Shown in pieces: positions 2,305 through 39,214 of a stretch of 64,000 nt of DNA (positions within the stretch are counted from its first letter, which is position 1; each line of letters starts with the position of its first letter). Source of the stretch: Candidatus Zixiibacteriota bacterium (GTDB taxonomy: Bacteria > Zixibacteria > MSB-5A5 > SM23-73-2); the NCBI GenBank assembly GCA_030615745.1, contig JAUWYR010000004.1:9838-73837 (forward strand). The letters are read 5' to 3'. The position numbers and the translations under genes were made by a program. The notes under the pieces are model-generated. The model saw nothing but the letters and a program-made list of their open reading frames with translations, searched no databases and was not told where the DNA came from.

Positions 2305-2385
2305 ACGGATTTAGCGGAGAAATTCGCAGCAGATGGAACAGATGAATTCACAGCAGATTAAGCAGATTGAACGGATAATTATTTT
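2304..2385 (+). repeat. left copy of ~100-nt direct repeat flanking the 2475-4409 gene (ACGGATTTAGCGGA...CAGATGGAACAGATGAATTCACAGCAGAT)
   Basis: strings GAACGGATTTAGCGGA and CAGATGGAACAGATGAATTCACAGCAGAT also at 4420-4520. Confidence 0.6.
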
Positions 2386-2441
2386 GTAGGGGCGGGGCTT
2401 GTTGAGCTTGGCGAAATCCCGATTTATCGGGGTCCCCGCCC
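2386..2441 (+). repeat. REP-like GC-rich hairpin element (GTAGGGGCGGGG...CCCCGCCC)
   Basis: near-identical copy at 25643-25697, rc-variant at 18298-18396, short forms at 4540-4562 and 25748-25773; GGGGCGGGG/CCCCGCCCC can pair. Confidence 0.65.
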
Positions 2442-2474
2442 TGAGGCAGAGAAATGTTTAACAAAGGGGAAAGG

Positions 2475-4409
2475 ATGAAAAAGATATTTGTTTTTGTGAT
2501 TTTGGCTTTGGTTCTTGTTGGTTTTGTTGGGGGGCAGGAAAGAGATACCCTCAAAGTTTCGCAACAAGTGGAGAGTTTGAAAGCTGAGATTGAGGAACTT
2601 AAAAAGGATGTGTATGAGAAAAGCATTGAGGGAATCAACAGAAGTATAAGCAATGTGAATACGGTTGCCACAGTCATAGGAGCAGTTGTTGTGTTACTTG
2701 GTATCATAGGCGGCATTACCCTGTGGAGGGCTGCTAAAGCTGAACGAGAACTTAGAACAGACGTGAAGGATACGAGGCGGGAACTCAGGGAGGACACAAA
2801 GGATATGAAACAGGAACTTAGAGAAGATATAAAGGAAATGAGGGGAAGAGTAGAAAGTGAATGCCAAAGAGTGGAGAATATGGCAGACAAAATTGCAACA
2901 GTAAAAGATGAGGTAGAAGAAGCTAAAAAGAACATGACAAAAATCCTTATAAAGGAAACCGAGAAAGCAGGTAAATCAAGAGAGGAGATAGAGGCTATAA
3001 AATCTTCGGCTGACAAAACGGTTAAAGAGATGGAAAGTAAGTATAAAGAAATGGTGGAACTTGTAGAAGAAGCGAAATCGATCTTACAGGACACCACAGA
3101 GCAAAAGAAAGCGGCTGAGGAAGCGGCAAGAAAAGCTGAAGCAGAAAGACTTTTTGCGGAAGCGTATTCGTTAGTTGAAAGAGGAAGGTTGGAGGAAGGC
3201 ATAGAAACGTATGAGAAAGTAATAAAGTTAACTCCTAAGGATGCAGATGCCTATAACAACTGGGGTGTTGCTCTTTCAGATTTAGCGGATTTGAAAGAAG
3301 ATGAGGCTTTATATCGAGAGTCTTTTGAGAAGTATGCTTTAGCAGTAAAATATAAAAAGGATTATCATGAAGCCTATTACAACTGGGGTCTAACTCTTAC
3401 TGACTTAGCAGATTTAGAGGAAGGTGAGGGTTTATACAGAGAATCTTTTAAGAAATATGCTTTAGCTGTGAAATACAAAAAGGATGATCATGAAACCTAT
3501 TACAACTGGGGTGTTGCTCTTTCAAATTTAGCGGATTTGAAAAAGGATGAGACTTTATATCGAGAATCTTTTGAGAAGTATGCTTTAGCAGTAAAATACA
3601 AAGAGGACGATCATTTAGTCTATAACAACTGGGGTTTAACCCTTTCTAAGTTAGCCGATTTTAAAAAGGATGAAAGACTTTATGGTGAATCTTTTGAGAA
3701 GTTTGTTTTAGCAGTAAAATACAAAGAGGATTTTGATGGAGCCTATTACAACTGGGGTAATGCCCTATCTGCCTTAGCAAAGTTGAAGAAGGATGAAACT
3801 CTTTATCGTAAATCTTTTGAGAAGTTTGCTTTGGCAGTAAAATACAAAGAGGATTTTCATGAAGCCTACAACAACTGGGGTTTAGCTCTTTCTGACTTAG
3901 CAGATTTAGAGCAAGATGAGGGTTTATACCAAGAATCTTTTAAGAAGTATGCTTTGGCTGTAAAATATAAAAAGGGTGATTATGAAACCTATTACAACTG
4001 GGGTGATGCTCTTTCAGATTTAGCGGATTTGAAAAAGGATGAGGCTTTATATCGAGAATCTTTTGAGAAGTATGCTTTAGCAGTAAAATACAAAAAGGAT
4101 TATCATGAAGCCTATTTCGACTGGGGTACTGTGCTATTAGAGTTTGGAAAACTAACAAAAGAAAAGCAGTTCTTTATACAGGCTTTAGAAAAAATTGAAA
4201 AAACTATTGAGATTAAAAAAGAAGATGTAGATGCTTGGTATAATAAAACCTGTGCTTACTCATTATTAAATGAAAAAGATAAAGCATTAGAATGTCTCAA
4301 AAAAGCAATTGAATTGGACCCATCGTTGAAAGAATATGCCAGAAAAGATAAAGATGAGGATTTCAAGTGGTTGTGGAAGGACGAGGATTTTAAGAAGTTG
4401 GTGGAGTAG
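2475..4409 (+). CDS. membrane-anchored repeat protein: N-terminal TM/signal, coiled-coil (RELREDTKDMKQELREDIKEMR), 8 x 40-aa TPR/Sel1-like repeats (YNNWGxALSDLADLKxDExLYRESFEKYALAVKYKxDxHEAY)
   Basis: repeat periodicity visible in protein and as ~120-nt near-identical DNA repeats 3240-4140; no specific family recognised. Confidence 0.6.
   Translation: MKKIFVFVILALVLVGFVGGQERDTLKVSQQVESLKAEIEELKKDVYEKSIEGINRSISNVNTVATVIGAVVVLLGIIGGITLWRAAKAERELRTDVKDTRRELREDTKDMKQELREDIKEMRGRVESECQRVENMADKIATVKDEVEEAKKNMTKILIKETEKAGKSREEIEAIKSSADKTVKEMESKYKEMVELVEEAKSILQDTTEQKKAAEEAARKAEAERLFAEAYSLVERGRLEEGIETYEKVIKLTPKDADAYNNWGVALSDLADLKEDEALYRESFEKYALAVKYKKDYHEAYYNWGLTLTDLADLEEGEGLYRESFKKYALAVKYKKDDHETYYNWGVALSNLADLKKDETLYRESFEKYALAVKYKEDDHLVYNNWGLTLSKLADFKKDERLYGESFEKFVLAVKYKEDFDGAYYNWGNALSALAKLKKDETLYRKSFEKFALAVKYKEDFHEAYNNWGLALSDLADLEQDEGLYQESFKKYALAVKYKKGDYETYYNWGDALSDLADLKKDEALYRESFEKYALAVKYKKDYHEAYFDWGTVLLEFGKLTKEKQFFIQALEKIEKTIEIKKEDVDAWYNKTCAYSLLNEKDKALECLKKAIELDPSLKEYARKDKDEDFKWLWKDEDFKKLVE
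3240..4140 (+). repeat. intragenic tandem repeats, ~120 nt period x ~8
   Basis: e.g. GATGAGGCTTTATATCGAGA(A/G)TCTTTTGAGAAGTATGCTTTAGCAGTAAAATA recurs at ~3300, ~3545, ~4025. Confidence 0.6.
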
Positions 4410-4539
4410 GTCAGCGGATTTATCAACGGATAGAACGGATTTAGCGGATGGATTCCCAACAGATGGAATAGATGGATTCACAGCAGATGGAACAGATGAA
4501 TTCACAGCAGATGAAACGGATTAAGCGGATGATTATATT
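4410..4539 (+). repeat. right copy of direct repeat flanking the repeat-protein gene, with internal CAGATGGAA(T/C)AGATG(G/A)ATTCACAG sub-repeats
   Basis: shares ACGGATTTAGCGGATGG and CAGATGGAACAGATGAATTCACAGCAGATGAAACGGAT with 2304-2385. Confidence 0.6.
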
Positions 4540-4562
4540 GTAGGGGCGGGGGGGTCCCCGCC
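4540..4562 (+). repeat. short REP-like hairpin GTAGGGGCGGGGGGGTCCCCGCC
   Basis: same ends as 2386-2441 element without the internal loop. Confidence 0.55.
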
Positions 4563-11896: not shown

Positions 11897-12202
11897 ATGT
11901 GGGCTGTAAGATTTTTTCTGATTATAGTGATTATCATCTTGGTCATTGGCTTCTCCATATATAATTCAGCTGAGACGGTCGATGTTAATCTATTTGGCAA
12001 GGTGTATATAGATGTTCCAATGATCTACCTTGCTTTCTGGGCATTTGTCATCGGTATGTTGATTTCATTTCTTTTAGGCATAACCCACTACCTCAAATTT
12101 CAATCTGAACTCAGAGAACAGAAAAAGGGAAACAAAAGCCTAATGGAGGAGATCACCACTTTAAGAAATATCCCCTTGGAGGAGGATATAGAGGAAAAAT
12201 AG
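11897..12202 (+). CDS. lapA: lipopolysaccharide assembly protein A (LapA/DUF1049)
   Basis: two TM helices then coiled-coil; immediately upstream of lapB. Confidence 0.65.
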   Translation: MWAVRFFLIIVIIILVIGFSIYNSAETVDVNLFGKVYIDVPMIYLAFWAFVIGMLISFLLGITHYLKFQSELREQKKGNKSLMEEITTLRNIPLEEDIEEK

Positions 12203-12217
12203 TTGGGAGGATAAAAA

Positions 12218-13363
12218 GTGGAATATGTGCTTAACTGGTGGATTTTAGCGGGTATAGTAATTGTTATTTTTGTTTTAATCCTTTTCTGGTTTGGTTCAAA
12301 AAGAAAAAAAGCCAAGCCAGCAGAAAAAATCTATATTGAAGGATTAAAAGCTTTGGTGTCTGGCGAGGACAGGATAGCTTTTCAAGAATTCAGGAAGGTT
12401 GTCGATTTAGATACGAATAACATCGATGCTTATCTTAAATTGGGGGACCTTTTCAGAAAAAGAAAAAGGTTTGATCGAGCGCTTCAGATTCACAAACAGC
12501 TCCTTTTGCGGCATAATCTCACTTTTGAATCAAAAAAGGAGATAAAAAAAGCTATAGCCTCTGATTACATAGAATCTAAAGACTACAACCAGGCTTGCGC
12601 TGTTTTGGAGGATTTGTTGAAATCAGATGAAAAGGACTTCTGGGTGCTCTCGAAACTTTTAGCTGAATATGAGGAAAAAGAGGATTGGGAGAAAGCTTTC
12701 TACTTAAGAGAAAAATTTTTCAAAGACAAAAAAGAGAAAAGTCAGAAAATCTTAGCGCTTTATAAGGTCTTTATGGGTAAGAAATTAGCCTCTGAAAAAG
12801 AGTTCCACAAAGCAAGGATCTCTTATAAGGAGGCTTTGCATAAAGATGTTGGCTGTGTTCCAGCCTTAATCTTTTTGGGCGATGCATACTATGAGGAGAA
12901 AAGGGTAGAGGAGGCGATTTCATCCTGGAAAAAGCTTTTGGAGATAGCGCCGAAGTCCTCTTATCTGGTTTTCGAAAAGCTCGAAAAAGCTTTATTCGAA
13001 TTGGGAAACTACGGGGAGATAGAGAAAATCTATGACCTGGTATTAAGAAACGACCCCCAGAACATACAGGCGCTTTTCGCATTATCAATTTTAGATGAGA
13101 AAAGAGGGAGAAAATCTCAGGCAGAACAGAAACACCTGCAGATTTTAGACTCAGACCCTGATTTTTTACCTTCAAGGCTCAGCTTGATAAAGATATATCA
13201 GGATAAAGGGGAAAAAACTAAAGCTAAGGAGATGGTCGATTCTTTGTTTGATGACTTTTTTACCCAATCTGAGAAATTTTTCTGCGAGAGGTGTGGATAT
13301 AGCTCAACTGAGCCTTTGTGGAGATGCCCTTCTTGTAAGGAGTGGAATAGCTTCGGGATTTAA
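12218..13363 (+). CDS. lapB: lipopolysaccharide assembly protein B (YciM; TPR + C-terminal rubredoxin-like zinc ribbon)
   Basis: N-terminal TM, TPR repeats, C-terminal CERCGYSSTEPLWRCPSCKEWNSF; GTG start with GGGAGG RBS. Confidence 0.8.
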   Translation: MEYVLNWWILAGIVIVIFVLILFWFGSKRKKAKPAEKIYIEGLKALVSGEDRIAFQEFRKVVDLDTNNIDAYLKLGDLFRKRKRFDRALQIHKQLLLRHNLTFESKKEIKKAIASDYIESKDYNQACAVLEDLLKSDEKDFWVLSKLLAEYEEKEDWEKAFYLREKFFKDKKEKSQKILALYKVFMGKKLASEKEFHKARISYKEALHKDVGCVPALIFLGDAYYEEKRVEEAISSWKKLLEIAPKSSYLVFEKLEKALFELGNYGEIEKIYDLVLRNDPQNIQALFALSILDEKRGRKSQAEQKHLQILDSDPDFLPSRLSLIKIYQDKGEKTKAKEMVDSLFDDFFTQSEKFFCERCGYSSTEPLWRCPSCKEWNSFGI

Positions 13364-13431
13364 AAAAATAGTTTTTTTATCCTCTATTTAAAAAAGTTTT
13401 AATAACTAAAGAAAGTATCCTTTCGGTTCAG

Positions 13432-16047
13432 ATGGAGAAGATAGGAACCCCATTGATGAATCAATATTGTAAAATAAAATCTCTGTATCCACAAGAGATT
13501 TTGTTTTTCAGAATGGGGGATTTCTATGAGATGTTCGGAGAGGACGCCAAGATCGCATCAAAGATTTTGGGTATAGCTTTAACTTCACGGGCACATGGAA
13601 AATCGGAAAAAGTTCCTTTAGCTGGTGTCCCTTATCATTCAGCTGAAAAATATATATCACAATTATTAAGGGCCGGAAAGAAAGTGGTTATCTGTGAGCA
13701 AACAGAGGACCCCAAAACCGCAAAAGGGATTGTTAAAAGAGAGGTGGTTGAGCTTATCACCCCGGGAACAATAACCATCGATAGCCTTTTTGACTCGGAT
13801 GAAAAAATTTTTTTAGCAAGCCTTACCTTTGATGAACAAAATGCTGGTCTGGCAGTTTTAGACCTTTCCACAGGCGAGTTCAAAGTTGAGGAGGATTCTT
13901 TTCAGAAAGTAGTGGAGAAAATAAACGCGATAAAGCCAAAGGAGATACTTCTGCCTCAAAGACTCTCTGAGAAAAAATCACTTGAGCTTGAAGATTTAAA
14001 AAATCAAGCGACCCTTACCTTTCTTGATGATTACAAGTTCAGCTATGATTATGCTTATCAAACCATCACCAGCCACTTCAAGACAGCATCTCTGGATGGC
14101 TTTGGGATCTCGGATTTAAACTTGGGAATCTCGTCTGCTGGAAGCATCCTTTCTTATCTTGAGCAGACCAAAAAGACTTTCCTTTTGCACATCAATAAGA
14201 TAACAAAGGCATCTTATGATGAGTGTATGTTTTTGGACTTCACCACCTTGAGAAATCTGGAGATATTTTCTCCTTTCAGCTCAACTGATTCAAAGGATTT
14301 TTCTTTTAAGAAAAATAGTCTATTCCACATTCTGAATAAGACCAAAACCGCGATGGGAGCAAGGCTTTTAAAGGAATGGTTGAAAGCTCCCCTTTATAAT
14401 GTGGAAAAGATAAAACAAAGGCAAAACTCAGTATCTGAGCTTTTGGAAAAAAGGGATAAAACGTTTGATCTTACAAAACTTTTAGACAAAATCCAGGATA
14501 TAGAGAGGCTTGCTGGAAAGCTCGGTTATGGTAAAGCCAATCCAAAAGACCTTGTCGCACTGGGTTTGTCTTTGAAAAATGTTCCGGAGATTAAAAATCT
14601 TTTAAAAGAGTTTAACTCCGCTCTTTTGAAAAACATAAAAGAAAAACTACCCGATACCTCTGAGATAGTCGATCTGATCCAATCCTCAATTGTGGATGAC
14701 CCTCCTTCGGTTTTAACTGAGGGTGGAATTATAAAAAAAGGATACAGCCAAAAGCTTGATGAGTTAAAAGAAAAGATAAAAACATCCAGGGATTGGATAG
14801 CCACCCTTCAACAGACCGAGAGGGAAAAAACAAAAATCCCTACACTTAAGGTTGGTTTTAACCGGGTGTTCGGATATTATATAGAGATCACCAAGCGCCA
14901 TCTTTCCAAGGTTCCAGAGGGGTATATACGAAAGCAGACTCTAATAAATGCTGAGAGATTTGTCACCGAGGAGTTGAAAAAAAGGGAAGAGATAATCTTA
15001 GGTGCTGAGGAGAAAATCTTTGAACTCGAGCATGATCTTTTTTTAGAGATAAGGTCTAAGGTTGCAAAAAAAATTAAGGATATTCAGAAAACCTCTGAAT
15101 ACTTAGCCACTTTAGATATCTTGTTAAGTTTTAAGGAGGTGGTTTTAAATTATCGTTATGTTCGTCCTGAAATCGATTTAAGTGATGATATAATAATCGA
15201 GGATGGGAGACATCCGATTCTTGAACATCTGCTCGAAAAAGGATTTGTTCCAAATGATACAATAATCAATTCAGACGAAAAGATTCACATCATAACCGGA
15301 CCGAATATGGCTGGAAAGTCAACCTATTTGAGGCAGGTTGGACTTATAGTGCTTTTGGCTCAAGTTGGCTGTTTTGTTCCAGCTAAGAAAGCAAAAGTAG
15401 GTCTGGTGGACAGAATATTCACCAGGGTGGGTGCCTTGGATAGTATCGCAACAGGCAAAAGCACATTTTTGGTGGAGATGAACGAAACAGCCAATATATT
15501 AAACAATGCCACCTCGAAAAGCTTAATCCTTTTGGATGAGATCGGTAAGGGAACATCAACTTTTGATGGGCTTTCCATTGCCTGGGCTACAACTGAGTAT
15601 ATCCACTATCATCCCAAGCTTTGTTCCAGGACTTTAGTTGCAACCCATTTCCACGAGTTAACTGAGTTAGCCAAACTTCTTCCAAAGGTAAGAAACTATC
15701 AGATAAAGGTTAAGGAATGGAAAGATGAGATAATATTTTTAAGAAAGATCGTCCCCGGAGGATGCGATGACTCATTCGGAATTTATGTGGCAAAATTAGC
15801 TGGAGTTCCAAAGGAGGTCCTGGAAAGGTCAAGGGAGATATTGTTGAAATTAGAAGGAGAGGAGCTTTCTTACAAGAGGGTTTCAAAACCAGGGGCTTTC
15901 TCGCAAAAAAAATCTTATCAGTTAAGTATTTTTTCAGCTAAGGATAACGAACTTGCTCAGGATTTGAAGAAAATTAATATAAATAAGTTGACACCTCTGG
16001 AGGCTTTGAATAAGTTGGAGGAGTTGAAGAGGAAAGCGGAAGAATAA
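13432..16047 (+). CDS. mutS: DNA mismatch repair protein MutS
   Basis: mismatch-binding N-term, Walker A GPNMAGKSTYLRQV, DEIGKGTSTFDGLSIAWA. Confidence 0.92.
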   Translation: MEKIGTPLMNQYCKIKSLYPQEILFFRMGDFYEMFGEDAKIASKILGIALTSRAHGKSEKVPLAGVPYHSAEKYISQLLRAGKKVVICEQTEDPKTAKGIVKREVVELITPGTITIDSLFDSDEKIFLASLTFDEQNAGLAVLDLSTGEFKVEEDSFQKVVEKINAIKPKEILLPQRLSEKKSLELEDLKNQATLTFLDDYKFSYDYAYQTITSHFKTASLDGFGISDLNLGISSAGSILSYLEQTKKTFLLHINKITKASYDECMFLDFTTLRNLEIFSPFSSTDSKDFSFKKNSLFHILNKTKTAMGARLLKEWLKAPLYNVEKIKQRQNSVSELLEKRDKTFDLTKLLDKIQDIERLAGKLGYGKANPKDLVALGLSLKNVPEIKNLLKEFNSALLKNIKEKLPDTSEIVDLIQSSIVDDPPSVLTEGGIIKKGYSQKLDELKEKIKTSRDWIATLQQTEREKTKIPTLKVGFNRVFGYYIEITKRHLSKVPEGYIRKQTLINAERFVTEELKKREEIILGAEEKIFELEHDLFLEIRSKVAKKIKDIQKTSEYLATLDILLSFKEVVLNYRYVRPEIDLSDDIIIEDGRHPILEHLLEKGFVPNDTIINSDEKIHIITGPNMAGKSTYLRQVGLIVLLAQVGCFVPAKKAKVGLVDRIFTRVGALDSIATGKSTFLVEMNETANILNNATSKSLILLDEIGKGTSTFDGLSIAWATTEYIHYHPKLCSRTLVATHFHELTELAKLLPKVRNYQIKVKEWKDEIIFLRKIVPGGCDDSFGIYVAKLAGVPKEVLERSREILLKLEGEELSYKRVSKPGAFSQKKSYQLSIFSAKDNELAQDLKKININKLTPLEALNKLEELKRKAEE

Positions 16048-16097
16048 TGAAGAATGACGGATGAAGAATGATTAATGACGAATGACGGATGACGAAT
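16041..16097 (+). repeat. GAATGA/ATGACGAAT iteron-like repeat block (left inverted repeat of 4HB cassette)
   Basis: 2x ATGACGAAT here vs 2x ATTCGTCAT at 16471-16500 and 18422-18452. Confidence 0.55.
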
Positions 16098-16472
16098 ATG
16101 GCGGTTTATAAAAAGTTTGAGGATTTGCCTGTGTGGATTTTGGCGAAGGATTTGGCGGTAAAAATATATCAGGTGAGCAAGGGAGAAAAATTTCGTAAGG
16201 ATTATGCTTTGGTTGACCAGATTCGAAGGGCATCTATTTCTATTTCGAGTAATATCGCTGAGGGGTTTGAAAGGGGATCGAAAAAAGAATTTATTCAATT
16301 TCTCTATATAGCCAAGGGTTCTTTAGGTGAAGTGAGAAGTCAATTGCAAGTTTGCTTTGAACTGGGTTATATGAATGAGCAAAACCTGAAAACTCTTTTA
16401 TTGCAGAGTTATGACCTCTCGAATCAATTAGGTGCTTTTATTTCATCAATTAAGAAGAGGATTAGAATTTAA
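16089..16472 (+). CDS. four-helix-bundle protein (TIGR02436 / 23S rRNA intervening-sequence protein family; Avd-like)
   Basis: KFEDLPVW...YQVSKGEKFRKDYALVDQIRRASISISSNIAEGFERGSKKEFIQFLYIAKGSLGEVRSQL is the hallmark of this family. Confidence 0.85.
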   Translation: MTNMAVYKKFEDLPVWILAKDLAVKIYQVSKGEKFRKDYALVDQIRRASISISSNIAEGFERGSKKEFIQFLYIAKGSLGEVRSQLQVCFELGYMNEQNLKTLLLQSYDLSNQLGAFISSIKKRIRI

Positions 16473-16522
16473 TTCGTCATCATTCATCAATCATTCGTCA
16501 TAATTTAAGGATGAAAAATAAG
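16460..16522 (+). repeat. 63-nt direct repeat, copy 1 (GATTA(G)AATTTAATTCGTCATCATTCATCAATCATTCGTCATAATTTAAGGATGAAAAATAAG)
   Basis: 62/63 identical to 18412-18474; includes mutL RBS and first four codons. Confidence 0.8.
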
Positions 16523-16562
16523 CTTATCATATTACTCGCAGTTGACAGGAGGTTGGTTAAAA

Positions 16563-18287
16563 ATGGGGAATAAAAAACAAAAGCCTGCAAAAATCTTGTT
16601 GGATGTTCCTGTTGATGATGGGGTTTTAGGTTTTGATAATTATAGGGATGCTTTGATAAATATTATCAAAAGCTCCGAACCAAGGTTCACTATTGGAATC
16701 TTCGGTGGCTGGGGAACTGGGAAGACTACTTTGATGAAGATGATGAAGAAAAAGTTGGATGATGAGGGAGAGGCTACGGTTTGGTTTAATCCCTGGGAAT
16801 ATGAGAAAGAGGAGCATTTGATAATTCCATTATTGCAAACAATTAATTTTGAGCTTAAAGATAAGAAACTACTAAATCCTCAAACACTTAAAAAGTTTGG
16901 CAAAGCTATACTTGCTTTAACCTCTGGCTTTACCGCAAAAATACCGGTAATTGGAGTGGAACTTAGCCCTAAAGATGCTATAGAATCTTACCAGAAACTT
17001 TTCGAAAGTAAAAACCTTTCATCCCTTTATTTTGACCTTAAGCAACAGTTGAAGGATATCATTAAAGAACTTAAAGAAAAAGAGAAATCAAGAATGATAA
17101 TCTTTGTTGATGACCTCGATAGATGTTTACCAGATAGGGCACTTCAGGTGTTAGAATCAGTGAAATTATTTTTGGATGCAGAAGGTTATGTTTTTGTATT
17201 GGGTTTAGACCGCAGTATCATTGAAAAGTGTGTTAACAGAAAATATGGCGAAAACTCAGGAATTAGTGGGACTGACTATATAAAGAAGATGATTCAGGTT
17301 CCTTTTAATTTACCTGGATTAAGGGAGCAGGAAGTTAAGGCTTATGTTAAACGATTACGAGACGAGATAAAAGGGACAGACGTAGAGGTATATGTTGAAA
17401 AGTATATTGACATAATTTCTAAAGGAATGGAGGCGAATCCGAGGGAGATAAAAAGATTTATAAATAATTTCATTTTAATAAATCAAATAAGCGCAGGAGA
17501 AACAGAGCCCGATAAGTTATTAGTTTTGTTAATAATCCAGTTCAGATGGGAGGGATTTTACAATGCACTAGCTGAATATAAGACAGATTTTCTGGCTTCG
17601 GTACTAGCATATACGGAGGAAGATAGAGACGTAAAATCTGAGCAGGGAAGAAAACAATTCCTAGAGCACTGGGGATACTTAGAGTTATTAGAAAAGACCT
17701 TAGATGATGACTTAAACTCTTTTTTGAAGGGGGAAGGTAAAATCTTATTCGGAATCCAAGATTTAGACCCCTATATCCATTTTTCCAAAGCTGCAAAGAT
17801 ACCTGAAGCAGAAGTAAAAGCTCTTACAAAAGAAAAGTTAATTTCTTTATTAAGAAATGGAAGAATAGATGAGTTTAATAAAATTCGTCCACGCCCGACA
17901 GTAGATTTGGCAGGAGCTGATCTGAGCGGAACTCATTTAAGTGAAGCTAATCTGAGAGGAGCTAATCTGAGAGAAGCTAAGATGAGCGAATCTGATCTGC
18001 GCGGAGCCAATCTAGCGGAAGCAGATATAGGGAAAGCCCGCTTTTGGCGATCTAATCTAAGCGGAGCTGATTTAAATAGAATCATAATTGATGATTACAC
18101 TATTTTTTTCAAAACAATCATTGAGAATGTCAAGAATCTATCGGAAGAAATAAGAGAGACATTAGATATTGAAATAGAAGACGGTGTTGAAAAAGCTACA
18201 AGCAAAGGGCTTTTCGAGAAAAAGGCGAAGGAAGAAAAGGTAGAATCGTCGGATATGAAATCTGACGCTACGAAAGAAAAATCATAA
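16563..18287 (+). CDS. KAP-family P-loop NTPase fused to C-terminal pentapeptide repeats
   Basis: Walker A GIFGGWGTGKTTLMKMM, Walker B IIFVDDLDRC, KAP-type architecture; C-term AGADLSGTHLSEANLRGANLREAKMSESDLRGANLAEADIGKARFWRSNLSGADL; ATG 16563 with AGGAGG RBS preferred over TTG 16542. Confidence 0.8.
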   Translation: MGNKKQKPAKILLDVPVDDGVLGFDNYRDALINIIKSSEPRFTIGIFGGWGTGKTTLMKMMKKKLDDEGEATVWFNPWEYEKEEHLIIPLLQTINFELKDKKLLNPQTLKKFGKAILALTSGFTAKIPVIGVELSPKDAIESYQKLFESKNLSSLYFDLKQQLKDIIKELKEKEKSRMIIFVDDLDRCLPDRALQVLESVKLFLDAEGYVFVLGLDRSIIEKCVNRKYGENSGISGTDYIKKMIQVPFNLPGLREQEVKAYVKRLRDEIKGTDVEVYVEKYIDIISKGMEANPREIKRFINNFILINQISAGETEPDKLLVLLIIQFRWEGFYNALAEYKTDFLASVLAYTEEDRDVKSEQGRKQFLEHWGYLELLEKTLDDDLNSFLKGEGKILFGIQDLDPYIHFSKAAKIPEAEVKALTKEKLISLLRNGRIDEFNKIRPRPTVDLAGADLSGTHLSEANLRGANLREAKMSESDLRGANLAEADIGKARFWRSNLSGADLNRIIIDDYTIFFKTIIENVKNLSEEIRETLDIEIEDGVEKATSKGLFEKKAKEEKVESSDMKSDATKEKS

Positions 18288-18297
18288 TGGAGTCAAT

Positions 18298-18396
18298 GTA
18301 GGGACGGTCCTCGTGGCTGTCCGCCTAAGGATTCGGACAGGGACCCCCCGCCAGAGGCGGGGGATTTCGCTATGCTCAACAAACCCTGTCCTTACG
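18298..18396 (-). repeat. REP-like element, inverted-orientation variant
   Basis: rc contains GGGTTTGTTGAGCATAGCGAAATCCC matching GGGGTTTGTTGAGCGAAGCGAAATCCC of 25650-25676; CCCCCGCC...GGCGGGGG stem. Confidence 0.55.
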
Positions 18397-18411
18397 TAAA
18401 ACCAAAAAAAG

Positions 18412-18474
18412 GATTAAAATTTAATTCGTCATCATTCATCAATCATTCGTCATAATTTAAGGATGAAAAATAAG
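18412..18474 (+). repeat. 63-nt direct repeat, copy 2 (overlaps authentic mutL start)
   Basis: see 16460-16522. Confidence 0.8.
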
Positions 18475-20223
18475 ATCACCATACTTCCCCAAGATTTGGT
18501 TAACAAAATCGCTGCTGGTGAGGTGGTGGAGCGTCCGGCATCTGTTGTCAAGGAGCTGGTTGAGAATTCGATCGATGCTAAGGCTAAAAGTATTAAGGTG
18601 AAAATAAGATTCGGCGGGGTGAAATTAATAGAAGTTACAGATGATGGGGAAGGGATGAATCCTGAGGATGCGGAGCTTTCTTTAAAAAGACATGCGACAA
18701 GCAAGATAAAAGAAAAAGACGACCTTTATAATATAAAAACCTTAGGTTTCAGAGGGGAAGCTCTACCATCCATTGCCTCTGTTTGCTTTTTGGAACTTTT
18801 AACAAGACAAAAAGATGCACTTTCAGGAACTTTTCTAAGCTTAGAAGCAGGTATGATAAAACAAAAAAAAGAGATCGGCGCGCCTTGTGGAACATCTGTA
18901 ACTGTAAAAGAGCTTTTTTATAATACCCCTGCAAGGCTTAAGTTTTTAAAATCCAAACTCACTGAAACCAAACATATAATCGACCTTATACAGAATTATG
19001 CCTTAGCATATCCATCTCTATTATTTGAGCTCGAATCTGACCAGAGAACTCTTCTGAATTTACCAGCTTCAATTTTAAAACAGAGAATAGCTGACATCTG
19101 GGGAAATGATCTGAAATCAAAATTGGTAGAGATGGAAAAAGAAAGGTCCGACCCTGAGATTTTCGGATTTTTAGGAAAGCCTGAACTCACAAGGTCTAAT
19201 CGTTCTGAAATACGCATTTTCGTTAACAGAAGACCTGTGGTCTCAAGGGTCTTAAATCATGCTATACAATCGGGATATAGAGACCTTCTTCCACAGGGGA
19301 AATTTCCCTTTGCTTTTGCCTTTTTCGAGATAGACCCGGAAAAGATCGATGTGAACGTTCATCCAACAAAAAGGGAGATCAAATTCTCAAATGAACATCA
19401 AATCTACAATCTGCTATATTTGAAAGTGAAAAAGTCACTTAAGAGTTTTCAGACTATCCCTTCATACAATCTTTCATCTGAAAAATTGGTATCTGAAAAG
19501 TCCGAAAAAGCTAAAGTTGGAGAAAAAATAATTGATTATAGCACAAAAATGCAAAAACCCGACTTTATTCAGGAAAAGATAATTGATAAAATCTATCCTG
19601 CTGAAAAAAGGAAAGAAATTGAGCCAGAAGAAAAAACAACTTTTCAGAAAATTTGGCAAATCTTTGATCAATATATATTGGTCCAGAACGAAGATGAGTT
19701 ATGGATTATCGACCAGCACGCAGCACATGAGAGGATACTTTATGAAGAAATAAGTGAGAATATAGGCAAAAGTGGTCTATTATCACAAAAGCTGCTTTTT
19801 CCAGAGACACTTGAGCTCTCTCCAAAAGAGTTTTTGATCTACCGGGAAAATTCCGATATTTTACTAAAGTTAGGATTTGAGGTGGAGCTTTTCGGTAAGA
19901 ACAGCCTTTTAATTTCTGGGGTTCCATCTCTTTTAAAAAACCGGTCTGAAAAAAACTTTTTCTGTGAGCTTTTATCTGAGCTGGATGAAAATTTAAAAAA
20001 AGAAGGGGACAGGATAAAATCGGTTGCTAAAGCTTTTGCCTGTAAATCAGCGATAAAATCAGGCCTGAGGCTTTCTTATGAGGAGATAAAAACACTTTAC
20101 CAGAGTCTTTTATCAACAAAAAATCCCTTCAGTTGTCCTCATGGCAGACCAACCATTATAAAAATATCACTTGAAGAGCTCGATAAAAAGTTTATGCGAA
20201 GCATTCTTCGAAAAAGAACCTGA
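18463..20223 (+). CDS. mutL: DNA mismatch repair protein MutL
   Basis: GHKL ATPase N-term (AAGEVVERPASVVKELVENSIDA), GFRGEALPSIASV, C-terminal dimerisation domain. Confidence 0.92.
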   Translation: MKNKITILPQDLVNKIAAGEVVERPASVVKELVENSIDAKAKSIKVKIRFGGVKLIEVTDDGEGMNPEDAELSLKRHATSKIKEKDDLYNIKTLGFRGEALPSIASVCFLELLTRQKDALSGTFLSLEAGMIKQKKEIGAPCGTSVTVKELFYNTPARLKFLKSKLTETKHIIDLIQNYALAYPSLLFELESDQRTLLNLPASILKQRIADIWGNDLKSKLVEMEKERSDPEIFGFLGKPELTRSNRSEIRIFVNRRPVVSRVLNHAIQSGYRDLLPQGKFPFAFAFFEIDPEKIDVNVHPTKREIKFSNEHQIYNLLYLKVKKSLKSFQTIPSYNLSSEKLVSEKSEKAKVGEKIIDYSTKMQKPDFIQEKIIDKIYPAEKRKEIEPEEKTTFQKIWQIFDQYILVQNEDELWIIDQHAAHERILYEEISENIGKSGLLSQKLLFPETLELSPKEFLIYRENSDILLKLGFEVELFGKNSLLISGVPSLLKNRSEKNFFCELLSELDENLKKEGDRIKSVAKAFACKSAIKSGLRLSYEEIKTLYQSLLSTKNPFSCPHGRPTIIKISLEELDKKFMRSILRKRT

Positions 20224-20231
20224 ATTTTATT

Positions 20232-21149
20232 ATGGATAAGGTTTTGGTTATCACCGGTCCAACTGGTGTTGGTAAAACCAAAGTCTCAATTGAAGTTGCC
20301 GATATATTAAAAGGTGAGATAATTTCTTGCGATTCAAGGCAGATTTATCGAGGAATGGATATTGGCACAGCCAAACCCAGAAAAGACCAAAGAAAAAAAG
20401 TTTTACATCATCTTTTAGACCTTGCCTTTCCAGACCAGAAATTCTCAGCAGCAGATTATGCAAAAGAGGCAAAAAAGAAAATAAAGGATGTGATAAAAAA
20501 AGGGAAAATCCCTGTAGTTGTCGGAGGTTCTGGATTATATCTTAGGGCACTTTGCAAAGGATTTTTTAAAGGTCCTAAAGGGGATGAAAGAATTAGACGA
20601 AAACTGAAAAAAGAAATGGAAAGCTTTGGTAAAAATTATCTTTACCTGAAGCTAAAACAAATCGATCCGGAGGCTGCTTTAAGAATACATCCAAATGATG
20701 AACATAGAATCATAAGAGCTCTGGAAGTATATGAACTCACAGGTAAAAAGATCTCCCAGTTTCAAAAAGAAGGGGAGTATGAGCCAGAGGAGTTTAAATT
20801 TATTAAGTTCGGTCTAACTTTAAAAAGGGATAAGCTATACCAAAGAATCGACCAGAGAGTTGACCAGATGATAAAAGATGGTCTTTTAGAAGAAGTAAAA
20901 CAGTTGAAAAAGATGGGTTATTCTCCTGAACTTTTGCCCCTCAGGACTTTTGGTTATAAGGAGTTATTTTCTTATCTTGGGGGGAAAATCGATCTGGAAG
21001 AAGCAATTGAACTGATTAAACTTAACACTCATCATTATGCAAAAAGACAGATCACCTGGTTCAAAAAGGAAAAAGATATAATTTGGCTCGATGCAGAGAA
21101 AAACAATTTGGTATCTGAGATCGTTCAAATATTTTCAAAAAATGCTTGA
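20232..21149 (+). CDS. miaA: tRNA dimethylallyltransferase
   Basis: P-loop GPTGVGKT, ISCDSRQIYRGMDIGTAKP; conserved mutL-miaA adjacency. Confidence 0.9.
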   Translation: MDKVLVITGPTGVGKTKVSIEVADILKGEIISCDSRQIYRGMDIGTAKPRKDQRKKVLHHLLDLAFPDQKFSAADYAKEAKKKIKDVIKKGKIPVVVGGSGLYLRALCKGFFKGPKGDERIRRKLKKEMESFGKNYLYLKLKQIDPEAALRIHPNDEHRIIRALEVYELTGKKISQFQKEGEYEPEEFKFIKFGLTLKRDKLYQRIDQRVDQMIKDGLLEEVKQLKKMGYSPELLPLRTFGYKELFSYLGGKIDLEEAIELIKLNTHHYAKRQITWFKKEKDIIWLDAEKNNLVSEIVQIFSKNA

Positions 21150-25458: not shown

Positions 25459-25531
25459 GCCCCTGTAGCTCAGTTGGATAGAGCAGCGGCCTCCGGAGCC
25501 GCGTGCACCCGTTCGAGTCGGGTCAGGGGTA
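25459..25531 (+). tRNA. tRNA-Arg (anticodon CCG)
   Basis: cloverleaf folded by eye: acceptor GCCCCTG/CAGGGGT, D-arm GCTCAGTTGGATAGAGC, anticodon stem-loop GCGGC-CTCCGGA-GCCGC, T-arm CACCC GTTCGAGT CGGGT. Confidence 0.85.
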
Positions 25532-25585
25532 GGATGAAAGTTTAAAATTAAAAATTTAAAGTTCAAAATTAAAAGAAACGGGTAT

Positions 25586-25780
25586 TAGAAAAGACAGGTT
25601 ATAGGTTATAGGTCATAGGTTGTAGGTGTTAGGGAAATAAATGTATGGGCGGGGTTTGTTGAGCGAAGCGAAATCCCGATTTATCGGGGTCCCCGCCTGA
25701 AAAAAACAGGTCATAGGTTATAGGTGGTAGGTGATAGGAAAATAAATGTAGGGGCGGGGTTTATCCCCGCCCGAGGAAAC
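25586..25780 (+). repeat. tandem duplication (~115 nt x2): (GGTTATAGG)n tract + REP-like GGGGCGGGG hairpin
   Basis: AGGTTATAGGTTATAGGTCATAGGTTGTAGGTGTTAGGGAAATAAATGTATGGGCGGGG vs CAGGTCATAGGTTATAGGTGGTAGGTGATAGGAAAATAAATGTAGGGGCGGGG. Confidence 0.6.
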
Positions 25781-27573: not shown

Positions 27574-27674
27574 TTAAAAATAGCAAAGAAAAATTGAAAA
27601 TATTACGTATAAATAAATTAATTTAAATCAGTTTTTTGTTGCATTTTTGAACTTAAGCTTTTATATTTTAAAAA

Positions 27675-27700
27675 AGAGTGGGAAGCTTCCCACTCTTTTA
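27675..27700 (+). terminator. rho-independent terminator candidate AGAGTGGGAAGCTTCCCACTCT + TTTA
   Basis: 9-bp perfect stem, short T-run; lies between proS and rimP. Confidence 0.4.
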
Positions 27701-37881: not shown

Positions 37882-37917
37882 TCCGAAGGATTTCCGAAGG
37901 ACTCTTCGAGCATAGAA
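37882..37917 (+). repeat. 36-nt dispersed repeat TCCGAAGGATTTCCGAAGGACTCTTCGAGCATAGAA (intergenic copy)
   Basis: 36/36 identical copy inside murI at 48107-48142. Confidence 0.75.
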
Positions 37918-37918
37918 T

Positions 37919-39214
37919 ATGAAAACGAAATTCGATGGAAAGTATAATAAAACGATATTGCAAAATGGGATAAGGGTTGTCTCTGAGAAGATCCCCTGGG
38001 TTAGTTCTGTTTGTGTTGGTGCATGGGTTGATGTAGGGTCAAGAGATGAAAATCAGAAAGAAGGCGGATTGTCTCATTTAATTGAGCATATGCTTTTTAA
38101 GGGGACTAAAAAAAGGTCAGCAAAACAGATTGCCTTAGCCTTGGAGTCGATAGGAGGAAGTCTCAATGCTTTTACAGGGAGGGAGAACACCTGCTATTAT
38201 GCTAAGGTCTTGGATGAGAATCTTGATTCAGCAATTGACCTCTTATCTGACATTTTAAAAAACCCTCTTTTCGACCCGGTTGATTTCAAAAAGGAAAAAA
38301 GAGTGATAATAGAGGAGATCAAAGACGCTGAGGATACTCCATCTGATCTGGTCTTTGACCTTTTTATGGAGGCTTTGTGGAAGAATCAAACCTTAGGAAA
38401 ACCGATTTTAGGAACTGTGGAAAGTGTAAAAAGAATTAAAAGAACAAACCTCTTAGCATATTTTAAACGCAATTATATTCCACCTAAAATAGTTGTTTGT
38501 GCCTCAGGAAACCTAAGTCATAAAAATTTAGTCAGGATGGTGAGAAAAAAGTTTGATAAAAATTTTAGAGCTTTTTCTTTTCACCGAACTGACCCAAAGA
38601 TAGAAAAAAAGCCCATACCTTATACCCGGAAGATGGTAACTGAGAAAGGGATTGCCCAAACTCATATCTGTATTGGATTCCCTGCTTTTGATTTCAACCA
38701 TCCACAAAAATATCCAGCTTTAGTTTTGAGCAATATCTTGGGTGGAGGAATGAGTTCTCGCCTTTTCCAAACAGTTAGGGAGAAATTAGGACTTGTTTAT
38801 AATATATATAATTTTTTCGACTTCTATTTTGATTCAGGAACATTCGGTGTATATCTCGGAACCAACCAGGAGGATATCCAGATGGCAGTGAAGGCGGTTT
38901 TGAGGGAATTTTCCAAAATAAAAAATGACAGATTGCCAAAGACAGAACTTAAGAATGCTAAATATCAGCTAAAGGGTAATCTGATATTGGGAGCTGAGAG
39001 CATCTCTTATCGGATGAGTAGATTAGCTCGTCATGAGCTATATTCTCAAGATTACTGGAGTTTGAAAAAATCTATCTTGGCTATTGAAGGGGTAAAAGCA
39101 AAAGAAGTAAAAGAGGTTGCTGAAAAGATCTTAGACTCTGATAAAGTCTGCATAACCATTTTGGGTCCGGTAAAAACAGGGGTGATAAAAAAAATAGATT
39201 GGGGACTTTTTTAA
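37919..39214 (+). CDS. M16-family zinc peptidase (pitrilysin-like)
   Basis: inverted zincin HLIEHMLFKGT (HxxEH); common gene downstream of pnp. Confidence 0.85.
   Translation: MKTKFDGKYNKTILQNGIRVVSEKIPWVSSVCVGAWVDVGSRDENQKEGGLSHLIEHMLFKGTKKRSAKQIALALESIGGSLNAFTGRENTCYYAKVLDENLDSAIDLLSDILKNPLFDPVDFKKEKRVIIEEIKDAEDTPSDLVFDLFMEALWKNQTLGKPILGTVESVKRIKRTNLLAYFKRNYIPPKIVVCASGNLSHKNLVRMVRKKFDKNFRAFSFHRTDPKIEKKPIPYTRKMVTEKGIAQTHICIGFPAFDFNHPQKYPALVLSNILGGGMSSRLFQTVREKLGLVYNIYNFFDFYFDSGTFGVYLGTNQEDIQMAVKAVLREFSKIKNDRLPKTELKNAKYQLKGNLILGAESISYRMSRLARHELYSQDYWSLKKSILAIEGVKAKEVKEVAEKILDSDKVCITILGPVKTGVIKKIDWGLF

What the first reader, a model, noticed from the sequence alone, without database searches (positions are those of the whole stretch)
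16041..18474. Cassette inserted between mutS and mutL: Avd-like four-helix-bundle protein + KAP P-loop NTPase/pentapeptide-repeat fusion, bounded by a 63-bp direct repeat that duplicates the mutL start
mutS is separated from mutL by a 2.4 kb insertion. The sequence 16460-16522 is repeated 62/63 at 18412-18474. The second copy contains the real mutL RBS and first codons (AAGGATGAAAAATAAG). The first copy therefore leaves a 'ghost' mutL start in front of the KAP NTPase gene, so the KAP gene plus an inverted REP element is exactly bracketed by the duplication. The upstream 4HB gene (23S-IVS/Avd family, the same fold as DGR accessory protein Avd) is itself flanked by inverted iteron blocks (2x ATGACGAAT on the left at 16041-16097, 2x ATTCGTCAT on the right). 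The right block forms part of the duplicated 63-mer. This architecture looks like sequential site-specific insertion next to DNA-repair genes. The pairing is mobilisable 4HB unit + KAP NTPase with a pentapeptide (DNA-mimic-like) tail. KAP NTPases are recurrent in defence islands, but a KAP-pentapeptide fusion partnered with an Avd-like protein has no assigned function.
Basis: partly seen in the sequence, partly recalled or inferred. Interest (0 to 1): 0.78.

Follow-up and report, generated by a model that had tools for sequence, protein, structure and literature searches.

The report
Old KAP NTPase insertion beside mutL
An orphan KAP-type ATPase gene, of a kind linked to phage defence, sits between the DNA-repair genes mutS and mutL of a Zixibacteria-like bacterium, bracketed by a real 80-bp duplication, but it is an old inherited insertion and not half of a new two-gene system with its four-helix-bundle neighbour.

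Summary
mutS (13432-16047) and mutL (18463-20223) are separated by a PF05635 four-helix-bundle (4HB) gene and a KAP_NTPase+pentapeptide gene. An 80-nt direct repeat (93%; core 62/63) occurs only twice in the window and brackets the KAP gene plus a GC-rich hairpin.

- Relatives at 73-84% nucleotide identity carry the same mutS-4HB-R1-KAP and KAP-hairpin-R2-mutL junctions, and KAP has diverged as much as its flanks. The insertion is old and vertically inherited.
- A more distant relative (L034) has 4HB, a single right array and mutL with no KAP, which looks like an empty site.
- The "iterons" are short tandem arrays. They pair across PF05635 genes in three phyla, as in a 23S-rRNA intervening sequence, and arrays of other units are common in this genome.
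- KAP homologues sit alone at other loci and 4HB occurs without KAP, so the two are not an obligate pair. No reverse transcriptase was found, so this is not a DGR.

KAP resembles the defence NTPases PDC-S20, QatA and PifA, and its pentapeptide tract varies greatly in length. R1 and R2 are far more alike than orthologous copies between genomes, which suggests homogenisation. Interest is moderate.

The parts
13432..16047 (+). mutS. Its stop codon runs into the left heptamer array.
   Evidence: Pfam MutS_I to MutS_V. Collinear with L032, L018, L034 and L035.
16041..16097 (+). Left heptamer array (ATGACGR units, about 7 copies). It forms the 5' arm of the stem that encloses the 4HB ORF.
   Evidence: TRF period 7, 7.4 copies. 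Inverted against 16472-16501. Duplex -31.1 kcal/mol, z -6.1, 0 of 300 shuffles as good. Present after the mutS stop in L032, L018, L034 and L035.
16098..16472 (+). Four-helix-bundle protein gene (PF05635 / TIGR02436, the 23S-rRNA-IVS protein family). It is the long-standing resident of this spacer.
   Evidence: Pfam E 4.8e-35. TIGR02436 E 1e-34. PDB 2gsc E 1.7e-15. 86% identical orthologue in L032. Intact in L034, with 5' remnants in L018 and L035.
16452..16531 (+). R1, the left copy of the direct repeat (core 16460-16522). It holds the last 4HB codons, the right inverted array (16472-16501) and a ghost mutL ribosome-binding site and start.
16511..16573 (+). Ghost mutL start, reused as a 20-codon upstream ORF (MKNKLIILLAVDRRLVKNGE*). 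Its stop overlaps the KAP ATG.
   Evidence: Translation. A 20-codon equivalent exists in L024 and a 14-codon one in L032, read.
16563..18287 (+). KAP-family P-loop NTPase fused to a pentapeptide-repeat beta-helix. Walker A is at nt 16704-16730, Walker B at 17103-17123 and the pentapeptide tract at about 17901-18098.
   Evidence: Pfam. PADLOC PDC-S20 5e-43, QatA 1e-38, PifA 5e-32. Invariant motifs and variable tract length. AlphaFold2 model with a confident beta-helix; best PDB analogue is RdrA.
18296..18400 (+). GC-rich composite hairpin (REP-like), lying between KAP and R2.
   Evidence: Fold -50.5 kcal/mol, z -3.5. Related copies at 2385-2440 and 25642-25697. Equivalent hairpins in L016, L017 and L024.
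18404..18483 (+). R2, the right copy of the direct repeat (core 18412-18474). It holds a decayed ghost of the 4HB 3' end, a second copy of the right array (18424-18453) and the functional mutL ribosome-binding site and start.
18463..20223 (+). mutL, followed by miaA at 20232-21149.
   Evidence: Pfam. The mutL-miaA-mltD order is shared with L016, L017, L018, L034 and L035.

Best explanation
The mutS-mutL spacer of this Zixibacteria-like lineage holds two unrelated tenants of different age.

1. The older tenant is an IVS-type unit. A PF05635 four-helix-bundle ORF is enclosed by inverted arrays of ATGACGR heptamers. In a transcript these arrays would pair into a long stem, as do the ends of 23S-rRNA intervening sequences. 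The stem is predicted, not shown, and its function is unknown.

2. The younger tenant is a single-gene KAP-family NTPase with a variable-length pentapeptide beta-helix. It is most likely a stand-alone anti-phage NTPase whose C-terminal module acts as sensor or effector. This is inferred from family resemblance and from published work on KAP fusions.

KAP and its REP-like hairpin entered at the junction between the right array and mutL. That event duplicated about 80 bp: the 4HB 3' end, the right array, and the mutL ribosome-binding site with its first four codons. After it, 4HB still had a closing array and mutL still had its native start. The left copy now supplies a ribosome-binding site and a short leader ORF overlapping the KAP start, which suggests translational coupling (inferred).

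The insertion predates the split of at least four sampled lineages and has been inherited vertically since. The two repeat copies in this genome have stayed nearly identical. The likeliest cause is gene conversion or recombination between them (inferred).
For: - Anatomy and domains.
- Age and vertical inheritance: L032 is 77% identical and collinear over window 12003-16912, including 4HB, R1 and the KAP N-terminus. L016 and L017 are 73-77% identical and collinear from KAP through mutL and miaA. L024 KAP is 84% identical.
- 4HB is older than KAP: it is intact directly upstream of mutL, without KAP, in L034 (MutL 57%), and survives as 5' remnants in L018 and L035.
- The mutL start is native: ATGAAAAAYAAC is present in L018 and L035, which lack the array.
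- The stem-enclosed ORF is a general feature: left and right arrays pair with z -5.6 to -7.9, with 0 of 300 shuffles as good, in 6 of 6 array pairings (five PF05635 units) from Zixibacteria, Nostoc and Riemerella.
- KAP is independent of 4HB: it stands alone at the msbA and hutU loci, and tblastn finds no 4HB in those loci.
- Defence affinity: PADLOC hits to PDC-S20, QatA and PifA. The best solved structural analogue is RdrA of RADAR. Single-gene KAP fusions gave Walker-B-dependent phage protection in bioRxiv 10.1101/2025.10.07.681051. The pentapeptide tract ranges from about 9 to about 30 repeats among close homologues, while the NTPase is strongly conserved.
- Homogenisation: R1 against R2 in the window is 62/63, whereas the same position between genomes is 50-55/63, and R1 copies are no closer to each other than to R2 copies.
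Against: - No contig other than the window shows both repeat copies, so concerted evolution is shown directly in one genome only.
- No promoter-like or terminator-like site was found in the repeat, and nothing is known about expression.
- The mechanism that produced an 80-bp duplication is not identified, and no recombinase or transposase lies nearby.
- ATGACGR arrays also sit just upstream of KAP at the msbA loci. This leaves room for a link between KAP and the arrays that the explanation does not need.
- L034 could be a post-excision site rather than a pre-insertion site.
- The defence role is by analogy only. The KAP AlphaFold2 model is of moderate quality (pLDDT 71.5, pTM 0.41).
Confidence: 0.6

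Rival explanations
1. One reading: 4HB and KAP-pentapeptide form a functional two-gene (defence) module, or travel together as one mobilisable unit.
For: Adjacency is conserved in the window and in L032. ATGACGR arrays of the type that flanks 4HB also lie directly upstream of KAP at the msbA loci of L011-13, L019, L020 and L023. This could be the footprint of a lost 4HB unit that travelled with KAP.
Against: KAP lies at four independent msbA loci and one hutU locus, with no PF05635 gene and no tblastn trace of one. 4HB occupies the same mutS-mutL site without KAP in L034. PF05635 units with their own arrays occur next to unrelated genes in Nostoc and Riemerella. No right-type (ATTCGTCAT) arrays are seen in the sequenced flanks of KAP at the msbA loci.
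Confidence: 0.1
2. The cassette is still mobile. R1 and R2 act as attL and attR, or as substrates for homologous recombination. KAP, the hairpin and one repeat copy excise as a circle of about 1.95 kb and re-insert, which also keeps the two copies identical.
For: The repeat brackets the cassette exactly and is 62/63 identical despite an old origin. In the Logan contig L024 the sequence upstream of the repeat and KAP is the R2-type left flank: the hairpin 3' arm plus AAAACCGAAAAAAGG, 92.7% identical to window 18379-18474. The contig ends in the 5' part of the same hairpin. That is the junction expected of a circle or a tandem duplication. L034 looks like the product of a precise deletion.
Against: No recombinase gene lies in or near the cassette. 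The site and orientation are the same in every relative, and KAP has co-diverged with its flanks. L024 is a short, probably low-coverage de Bruijn contig, and its junction could be a walk through identical repeats or a REP that replaced 4HB. The window's own Logan contig simply breaks inside both copies.
Confidence: 0.17
3. Two independent 4HB units once lay in tandem, and the second decayed to its last 20 nt plus the right array. On this view nothing was duplicated at insertion.
For: R2 begins with a decayed copy of the 4HB C-terminal codons (AAAAAAAGGATTAAAATTTAA), and PF05635 units are repeated elements.
Against: R1 also carries the mutL ribosome-binding site and ATGAAAAATAAG. That sequence is native to mutL in relatives without any array (L018, L035). 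The repeat therefore spans the 4HB/mutL junction and cannot be an element end alone.
Confidence: 0.04
4. Assembly artefact: the KAP segment was placed between two collapsed repeat copies by mistake.
For: A k=31 assembly of the same sequence breaks at both copies (L010 = window 16493-18439).
Against: Independent assemblies show both junctions: 4HB-R1-KAP in L032, and KAP-hairpin-R2-mutL in L016 and L017. The copies also differ in their outer 14-17 nt.
Confidence: 0.03

Closest known systems
Single-gene KAP P-loop NTPase defence proteins (PifA of the F plasmid; QatA of QatABCD; PADLOC candidate PDC-S20; EF_KAP and other KAP-effector fusions in bioRxiv 10.1101/2025.10.07.681051)
   Same: A KAP_NTPase domain with intact Walker A and DDLDR Walker B, followed by a variable C-terminal module. 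PADLOC hits at 5e-43, 1e-38 and 5e-32. It is a lone gene between housekeeping genes.
   Different: The C-terminal module here is a pentapeptide beta-helix. There is no clear transmembrane segment (maximum Kyte-Doolittle 1.46 over 19 aa). No QatBCD partners are present, and the QatA equivalog score is 145 against a cut-off of 600. No phenotype has been tested.
23S rRNA intervening sequences with an internal ORF (Leptospira, Coxiella 'S23p'; Pfam PF05635). Comparison from own knowledge.
   Same: The same protein family, with an ORF enclosed by inverted terminal sequences that can form a long stem.
   Different: It lies in a protein-coding operon spacer, not in rRNA. The arms are arrays of 7-nt tandem repeats. 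RNase III processing has not been tested.
Avd, the accessory protein of diversity-generating retroelements
   Same: The same Pfam family (PF05635), and presumably the same four-helix-bundle fold.
   Different: No reverse transcriptase was found in the 34 larger ORFs scanned with Pfam, and self-BLAST shows no TR/VR-like repeat pair. phmmer against the PDB finds 2gsc and 2rld but not Avd at E <= 0.01.
Integrative islands that insert into the end of a gene and restore it, such as dusA-5' or tRNA-3' islands with attL/attR direct repeats. Comparison from own knowledge.
   Same: The cargo is bracketed exactly by direct repeats that include the 5' end of the target gene, and the distal copy keeps the gene intact.
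   Different: No integrase is present, the cargo is a single gene, and it is inherited vertically at a fixed site in all relatives.
Pentapeptide-repeat proteins MfpA and Qnr (DNA mimics), HetL, Np275/276
   Same: A right-handed quadrilateral beta-helix is predicted with pLDDT of about 90.
   Different: The tract is short, about 13 repeats. It is fused to an NTPase, and its length is highly variable among homologues. DNA mimicry has not been tested.
Cyanobacterial STRR heptanucleotide repeats, and REP/RAYT elements. Comparison from own knowledge.
   Same: Intergenic arrays of 7-nt units with several different sequences. GC-rich REP-like hairpins are present, and a RAYT flanked by REPs sits in the same spacer in L018.
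   Different: The phylum is different. Here the arrays occur as inverted pairs around an ORF or between tRNA genes.

Membership tests
KAP family P-loop NTPase (PF07693) | Profile match above the curated threshold over the whole domain | tested here: met
   166.7 bits against a cut-off of 20, profile positions 1-288 of 293.
KAP family P-loop NTPase (PF07693) | Walker A GxxGxGK[ST] and Walker B hhhhDDLDR | tested here: met
   GGWGTGKTT (48-56) and FVDDLDR (181-187), invariant in 16 homologues.
KAP family P-loop NTPase (PF07693) | A helical, often transmembrane, insert between Walker A and Walker B | tested here: inconclusive
   The model has four helices between residues 87 and 172. The most hydrophobic 19-aa window scores only 1.46, so an insert is present but is probably not membrane-spanning.
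QatA (Qat system) / PifA | Equivalog-level similarity and the partner genes QatBCD | tested here: not met
   NCBIfam QatA scores 144.9 bits against a cut-off of 600. The neighbours are 4HB and mutL.
Anti-phage defence protein | Protection against phage that depends on the NTPase motifs | not testable with these tools
   Analogy only.
Pentapeptide repeat family (PF00805) | Tandem A(D/N)LXX repeats forming a beta-helix | tested here: met
   59.2 bits against 20.2. PDB matches to pentapeptide-repeat proteins (Np275/276, All3740, designed beta-solenoids) down to 1.7e-19. pLDDT is about 90 over residues 450-550.
23S rRNA-IVS protein / four-helix-bundle family (PF05635, TIGR02436) | Profile match above the curated threshold | tested here: met
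   120.4 bits against 33.8 and 118.9 against 24.
23S rRNA intervening sequence (element) | ORF flanked by inverted sequences able to form a stem | tested here: met
   Duplex -31.1 kcal/mol, z -6.1. The arms pair in the MFE and the centroid fold.
23S rRNA intervening sequence (element) | Located inside a 23S rRNA gene and excised by RNase III | tested here: not met
   It lies between mutS and KAP, and Rfam finds no rRNA in the window. Processing is not testable here.
Diversity-generating retroelement (Avd role) | An adjacent reverse transcriptase and a TR/VR repeat pair | tested here: not met
   No RT among the 34 larger ORFs scanned with Pfam. Self-BLAST shows no TR/VR-like pair.
Site-specific integrative element (attL/attR) | Direct repeats bracketing the insert and including the target-gene end | tested here: met
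Site-specific integrative element (attL/attR) | An integrase or recombinase gene in the element, and variable presence among close relatives | tested here: not met
   The only genes are KAP and, outside the bracket, 4HB. The cassette is present at the same site in all four closer relatives.
Transposon or insertion sequence with target-site duplication | A transposase, terminal inverted repeats of the insert, and a short duplication | tested here: not met
   There is no transposase, the duplication is 63-80 bp, and the ends of the KAP segment are not inverted repeats.

The most novel reading that the evidence does not exclude
Short-tandem-array sites in these genomes may be preferred entry points for a duplicative gene-capture process. 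Cargo genes would land in or beside an array, and 30-130 bp of array plus the adjacent gene end would be copied to both sides. The repeats would then keep recombining, giving homogenisation and occasional excision as circles. The PF05635 protein might be the nucleic-acid-binding factor of that process.

Three independent brackets fit this reading:
- KAP between R1 and R2 in the window.
- A TM+TPR_12 gene between copies of the mutS 3' end plus left array in L035 and L034.
- A TPR gene at window 2454-4409 between array-rich repeats at 2322-2397 and 4476-4551.

The hybrid junction in L024 also fits.
Probability: 0.15. Interest if true: 0.7.

Novelty: new member of a known kind. Interest (0 to 1): 0.4.

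Why it matters
If the reading is right, the locus adds one more orphan KAP-NTPase fusion, with a pentapeptide beta-helix of variable length, to a class only recently shown to protect against phage. It would be a reasonable candidate for a phage-challenge test.

The locus is also a clean natural example of how a foreign gene can be wedged between two essential-pathway genes without harm. The junction is duplicated, so the upstream stem-enclosed ORF and the downstream mutL both keep their signals, and the newcomer inherits a translation-initiation region.

Two side observations may interest people who study small genomic elements, though neither is established here. PF05635 genes in three phyla sit inside stems made of lineage-specific short tandem arrays. 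Several cargo genes in these genomes are bracketed by array-containing duplications.

Tried and rejected
- Genome collection scan with MutL: it returned only Flavobacteria at 32-38% identity and no close relative.
- Metagenome scan for the repeat pattern ATTCGTCATAN{8,9}ATGAAAAAYAAR: 9 loci, of which only L029 (the same contig as L017) and L032 are true relatives. No close-relative empty site was found.
- Rfam on the whole window: only four tRNAs. Neither the hairpin nor the arrays match a known RNA family.
- Promoter and terminator scan of 15800-18700: nothing in the repeat, and fewer promoter-like sites than in shuffles.
- Whole-unit fold of 16030-16530: the total energy is not better than shuffles (z +1.1). 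Only the arm-to-arm pairing is significant.
- Literature search on PF05635 and IVS proteins: nothing on non-rRNA units or their flanking arrays.
- Extension of the ghost beyond the core: the local alignment is weak (TTGGTTAAAAA against TTGGTTAACAA; 29 of 1000 shuffles as good). I treat it as suggestive only.
- Cluster look-up: no names or accessions.
- Comparison of the window TPR protein with the L035 TPR protein: only generic TPR similarity, so they are not the same cargo.
- Ideas considered and rejected: a DGR (no RT); two tandem 4HB units (the ghost mutL start argues against it); an assembly artefact (independent assemblies agree).

Full report
**1. The observation**

The region reads as follows:
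- mutS, 13432-16047
- a period-7 tandem array, 16046-16097
- a 124-aa ORF, 16098-16472
- an 80-nt repeat copy R1, 16452-16531
- a 574-aa ORF, 16563-18287
- a GC-rich hairpin, about 18298-18395
- repeat copy R2, 18404-18483
- mutL, 18463-20223, then miaA

Pfam confirms MutS and MutL. It calls the small ORF 23S_rRNA_IVP (PF05635, E 4.8e-35). It calls the large ORF KAP_NTPase (E 9e-49, nearly the full profile) plus Pentapeptide (E 3e-16).

The 63-nt core of the repeat is 62/63 identical, and the repeat extends to 80 nt at 93%. The core occurs exactly twice in 64 kb and never in shuffles. A self-BLAST of the window finds no third copy.

The left array is complementary to the array inside both repeat copies, 30 nt at 80%. 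ATGACGAATGA-like words occur nine times in the window, all at this locus, against 1.1 expected. Base composition does not set the insert apart.

**2. Organism and relatives**

MutL homologues place the window among candidate division Zixibacteria.

Closer relatives:
- L032, a 12-kb metagenome contig, is collinear with window 12003-16912 at 77% nucleotide identity. It carries mutS, an ATGACGR array, a 4HB gene (86% amino-acid identity), R1 with a ghost ATGAAAAATAAA, and the KAP N-terminus.
- L016 (MutL 79%) and L017 (MutL 77%) are collinear from the KAP C-terminus through a GC-rich hairpin, R2, mutL and miaA, at 73-77% identity.
- L024 carries a KAP gene 84% identical in DNA, preceded by the same repeat and a 20-codon leader ORF.

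KAP is as diverged as its flanks. The whole arrangement, with both junctions, therefore predates these lineages and has been inherited vertically.

The difference is that the relatives keep the flanking repeat copies, although each of their contigs shows only one copy.

**3. More distant relatives show the history of the site**

- L034 (MutL 57%) has mutS, REP hairpins, a TM+TPR_12 gene, a left array, an intact 4HB gene and a long right array. The right array abuts the mutL start directly. There is no KAP and only one copy of the junction.
- L035 has the same TPR gene, but only the first ~30 nt of 4HB survive.
- L018 (MutL 58%) has two ATGACGG units and a 4HB 5' remnant. These are followed by a REP-flanked RAYT (Y1_Tnp) gene.

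The 4HB unit is therefore the old resident of the mutS-mutL spacer, and the spacer has taken up different cargo in different clades.

mutL starts ATGAAAAAYAAC even where no array precedes it. The ATGAAAAATAAG in R1 is thus a true ghost of mutL and not part of an element end. This excludes the idea that R2 is just the stump of a second 4HB unit.

**4. What the 'iterons' are**

Left and right arrays pair strongly in every PF05635 unit I could examine:

| Unit | Duplex energy (kcal/mol) | z |
|---|---|---|
| window, left array against R1 | -31.1 | -6.1 |
| window, left array against R2 | -31.1 | -5.6 |
| L032 | -31.7 | -5.9 |
| L034 | -53.0 | -7.0 |
| Nostoc plasmid unit (GGGAAAA-type arrays) | -56.0 | -6.0 |
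| Riemerella unit (AAGGTTT-type arrays) | -42.5 | -7.9 |

No shuffle out of 300 did as well in any case.

The unit is an ORF inside a stem made of lineage-specific short tandem repeats. This is the architecture of 23S-rRNA intervening sequences, found here outside rRNA.

Heptamer arrays of many other units are common in intergenic DNA of this window. One forms an inverted-array hairpin between tRNA-Arg and tRNA-His. They are a genomic habit of this organism and not replication-type iterons.

No reverse transcriptase was found among the 34 larger ORFs scanned. The 4HB protein is therefore not acting as a DGR Avd here.

**5. KAP is not partnered with 4HB**

KAP homologues at 58-69% identity are lone genes:
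- downstream of msbA, in four independent lineages (L011-13, L019, L020-22, L023)
- downstream of hutU (L014/15)

None of these loci has a PF05635 gene or any tblastn trace of one.

L011 and L035 come from the same sample, as do L012 and L036. The organism with the TPR gene at mutS therefore probably keeps its KAP at msbA.

One point is unexplained. ATGACGR arrays lie directly after the msbA stop, upstream of KAP, at all msbA loci. I keep this as the main evidence for the rival view that KAP once travelled with a 4HB unit or favours such arrays.

At those loci KAP is bracketed by direct copies of REP modules, for example 67 nt at 96% in L019.

**6. What KAP probably does**

- Walker A (GGWGTGKTT) and Walker B (FVDDLDR) are invariant in 16 homologues. 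The pentapeptide tract ranges from about 9 to about 30 repeats.
- PADLOC models PDC-S20 (5e-43), QatA (1e-38) and PifA (5e-32) match the NTPase. The QatA equivalog threshold is far from met, and no Qat partners are present.
- The AlphaFold2 model is moderate overall (pLDDT 71.5, pTM 0.41) but confident for the beta-helix. Its best solved analogue is RdrA of RADAR, at low TM-score.
- No convincing transmembrane segment is present.
- A 2025 preprint reports that single-gene KAP NTPases fused to diverse C-terminal regions protect against phage, and that for the one protein tested by mutation (EF_KAP) protection depends on Walker B.

I therefore read this gene as a stand-alone defence-type NTPase whose variable beta-helix is the sensing or effector part. 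This is inference by family resemblance and has not been shown.

**7. The duplication**

The repeat contains the last 4HB codons, the right array, and the mutL ribosome-binding site with its first four codons. After the insertion both neighbours kept what they had.

The left copy gives KAP a ribosome-binding site followed by a 20-codon ORF whose stop overlaps the KAP ATG:
- window, 16511-16573: MKNKLIILLAVDRRLVKNGE*
- L024: MKNKLVISFVVYRRFIKNGQ*
- L032: a shorter version, MKNKIKNNLLLTGG*

Across genomes the core is 50-55/63 identical whether like or unlike positions are compared. Within the window R1 against R2 is 62/63. For an insertion older than lineages that differ by about 23%, this indicates homogenisation by gene conversion or recombination. 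It is shown directly in this genome only.

How an 80-bp duplication arose is not resolved. There is no recombinase or transposase nearby. A Campbell-type entry of a circle carrying a copy of the junction, or repair of widely staggered breaks, would both fit.

L024's contig begins with the R2-type left flank and ends in the 5' part of the same hairpin. That is what a circle or a tandem copy would give. A short low-coverage de Bruijn contig could also produce it artefactually.

The window's own Logan contig covers 16493-18439 exactly and breaks inside both copies.

**8. A wider pattern, not established**

Two other cargo genes are bracketed in the same style:
- The TPR gene of L035 lies between 30-nt copies (97%) of TAAAAAAGAAAATGACGAATGAATAAT. 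These copies encode the last seven codons of both mutS and the TPR gene.
- In the window, a TPR gene (2454-4409) lies between array-rich repeats 2322-2397 and 4476-4551, 89.5% over 76 nt and longer by eye.

This is the basis of the novel reading scored separately.

**9. Verdict**

The features are real and the domain calls are correct. The locus is best described as an old, vertically inherited insertion of an orphan KAP-pentapeptide NTPase next to a resident IVS-type 4HB unit, in a spacer that accepts cargo. The insertion is bracketed by a junction duplication that is kept homogeneous.

It is a new member of known kinds: a KAP-fusion defence candidate and a PF05635 stem-enclosed unit. It is not a new two-gene system. 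Interest is moderate.

Noticed in passing
window 2322-2397 and 4476-4551 (flanking ORF 2454-4409): A second bracketed cassette. A 651-aa TPR-repeat gene and a REP hairpin (2386-2440) lie between array-rich direct repeats, 76 nt at 89.5% by BLAST and about 100-130 nt by eye, running from GTCAGCGGATT to TTGTAGGGGCGGGG. The left copy overlaps the last codons of the AMP-binding gene 517-2304.
   Followed up: partly
L035 2570-2599 and 4701-4730; L034 2537-2563 and 4439-4465: In relatives with MutL at 57% identity, a TM+TPR_12 gene sits between mutS and the 4HB unit. It is bracketed by a repeat that contains the last seven codons and stop of mutS (KKKMTNE*), and these codons also end the TPR gene.
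   Followed up: partly
L018 6200-6990: The same mutS-mutL spacer in another relative holds a RAYT (Y1_Tnp) gene flanked by REP hairpins. It lies just after two ATGACGG units and a remnant of the 4HB 5' end about 40 nt long.
   Followed up: partly
window 49243-49608: Heptamer arrays of different units fill the spacers of a tRNA-Pro/Arg/His cluster. 49534-49567 (AGTAAAC x4.9) and 49574-49608 (TTTACTG x5) form an inverted-array hairpin between tRNA-Arg and tRNA-His, like a 4HB unit without its ORF.
   Followed up: no
window 25537-25762: Downstream of tRNA-Arg (25459-25531) there are two tandem modules of a heptamer array (AGGTTAT / AGGTGAT) plus a REP-like hairpin. They form a 55-nt direct repeat at 89%, and the REP part is 91% identical to 2385-2440.
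   Followed up: no
window 37882-37924 and 48107-48149: A 43-nt repeat (95%) contains the TTTCCGAAGGA tandem and the start region of the M16 peptidase gene (ATG at 37919). The second copy lies inside the racemase ORF 47474-48349. This may be another displaced gene-start ghost.
   Followed up: no
window 39326-39404 versus 46009-46033 and 46444-46469: Two perfect inverted matches of 25 and 26 nt link the polysaccharide-deacetylase ORF with the amidase ORF region. They are unexplained.
   Followed up: no
L024 1-103 and 2040-2095: In this Logan contig the KAP cassette looks circularly permuted: hairpin 3' arm, repeat, KAP, hairpin 5' arm. This is compatible with a circle or a tandem copy, or it may be an assembly artefact.
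   Followed up: partly
L011 5912-5940; L019 742-830; L020 2925-2945; L023 111-142: ATGACGR heptamer arrays start at or in the stop codon of msbA, directly upstream of the lone KAP genes. At these loci KAP is flanked by direct copies of REP modules, for example 67 nt at 96% in L019.
   Followed up: partly
window 17901-18098 and homologues P0002-P0017: The pentapeptide tract of close KAP homologues varies from about 9 to about 30 repeats, while the NTPase part is highly conserved. The DNA is a period-15 tandem.
   Followed up: partly
L037 1435-1912 (Nostoc plasmid) and L038 1105-1680 (Riemerella): PF05635 genes in two other phyla are also enclosed by inverted short-tandem arrays, of GGGAAAA type and AAGGTTT type. 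This suggests a general architecture that I could not find described in the searchable literature.
   Followed up: partly
window 27672-27699 and 56047-56076: Perfect 28-nt and 30-nt palindromes lie in intergenic DNA. They are probably terminator hairpins.
   Followed up: no
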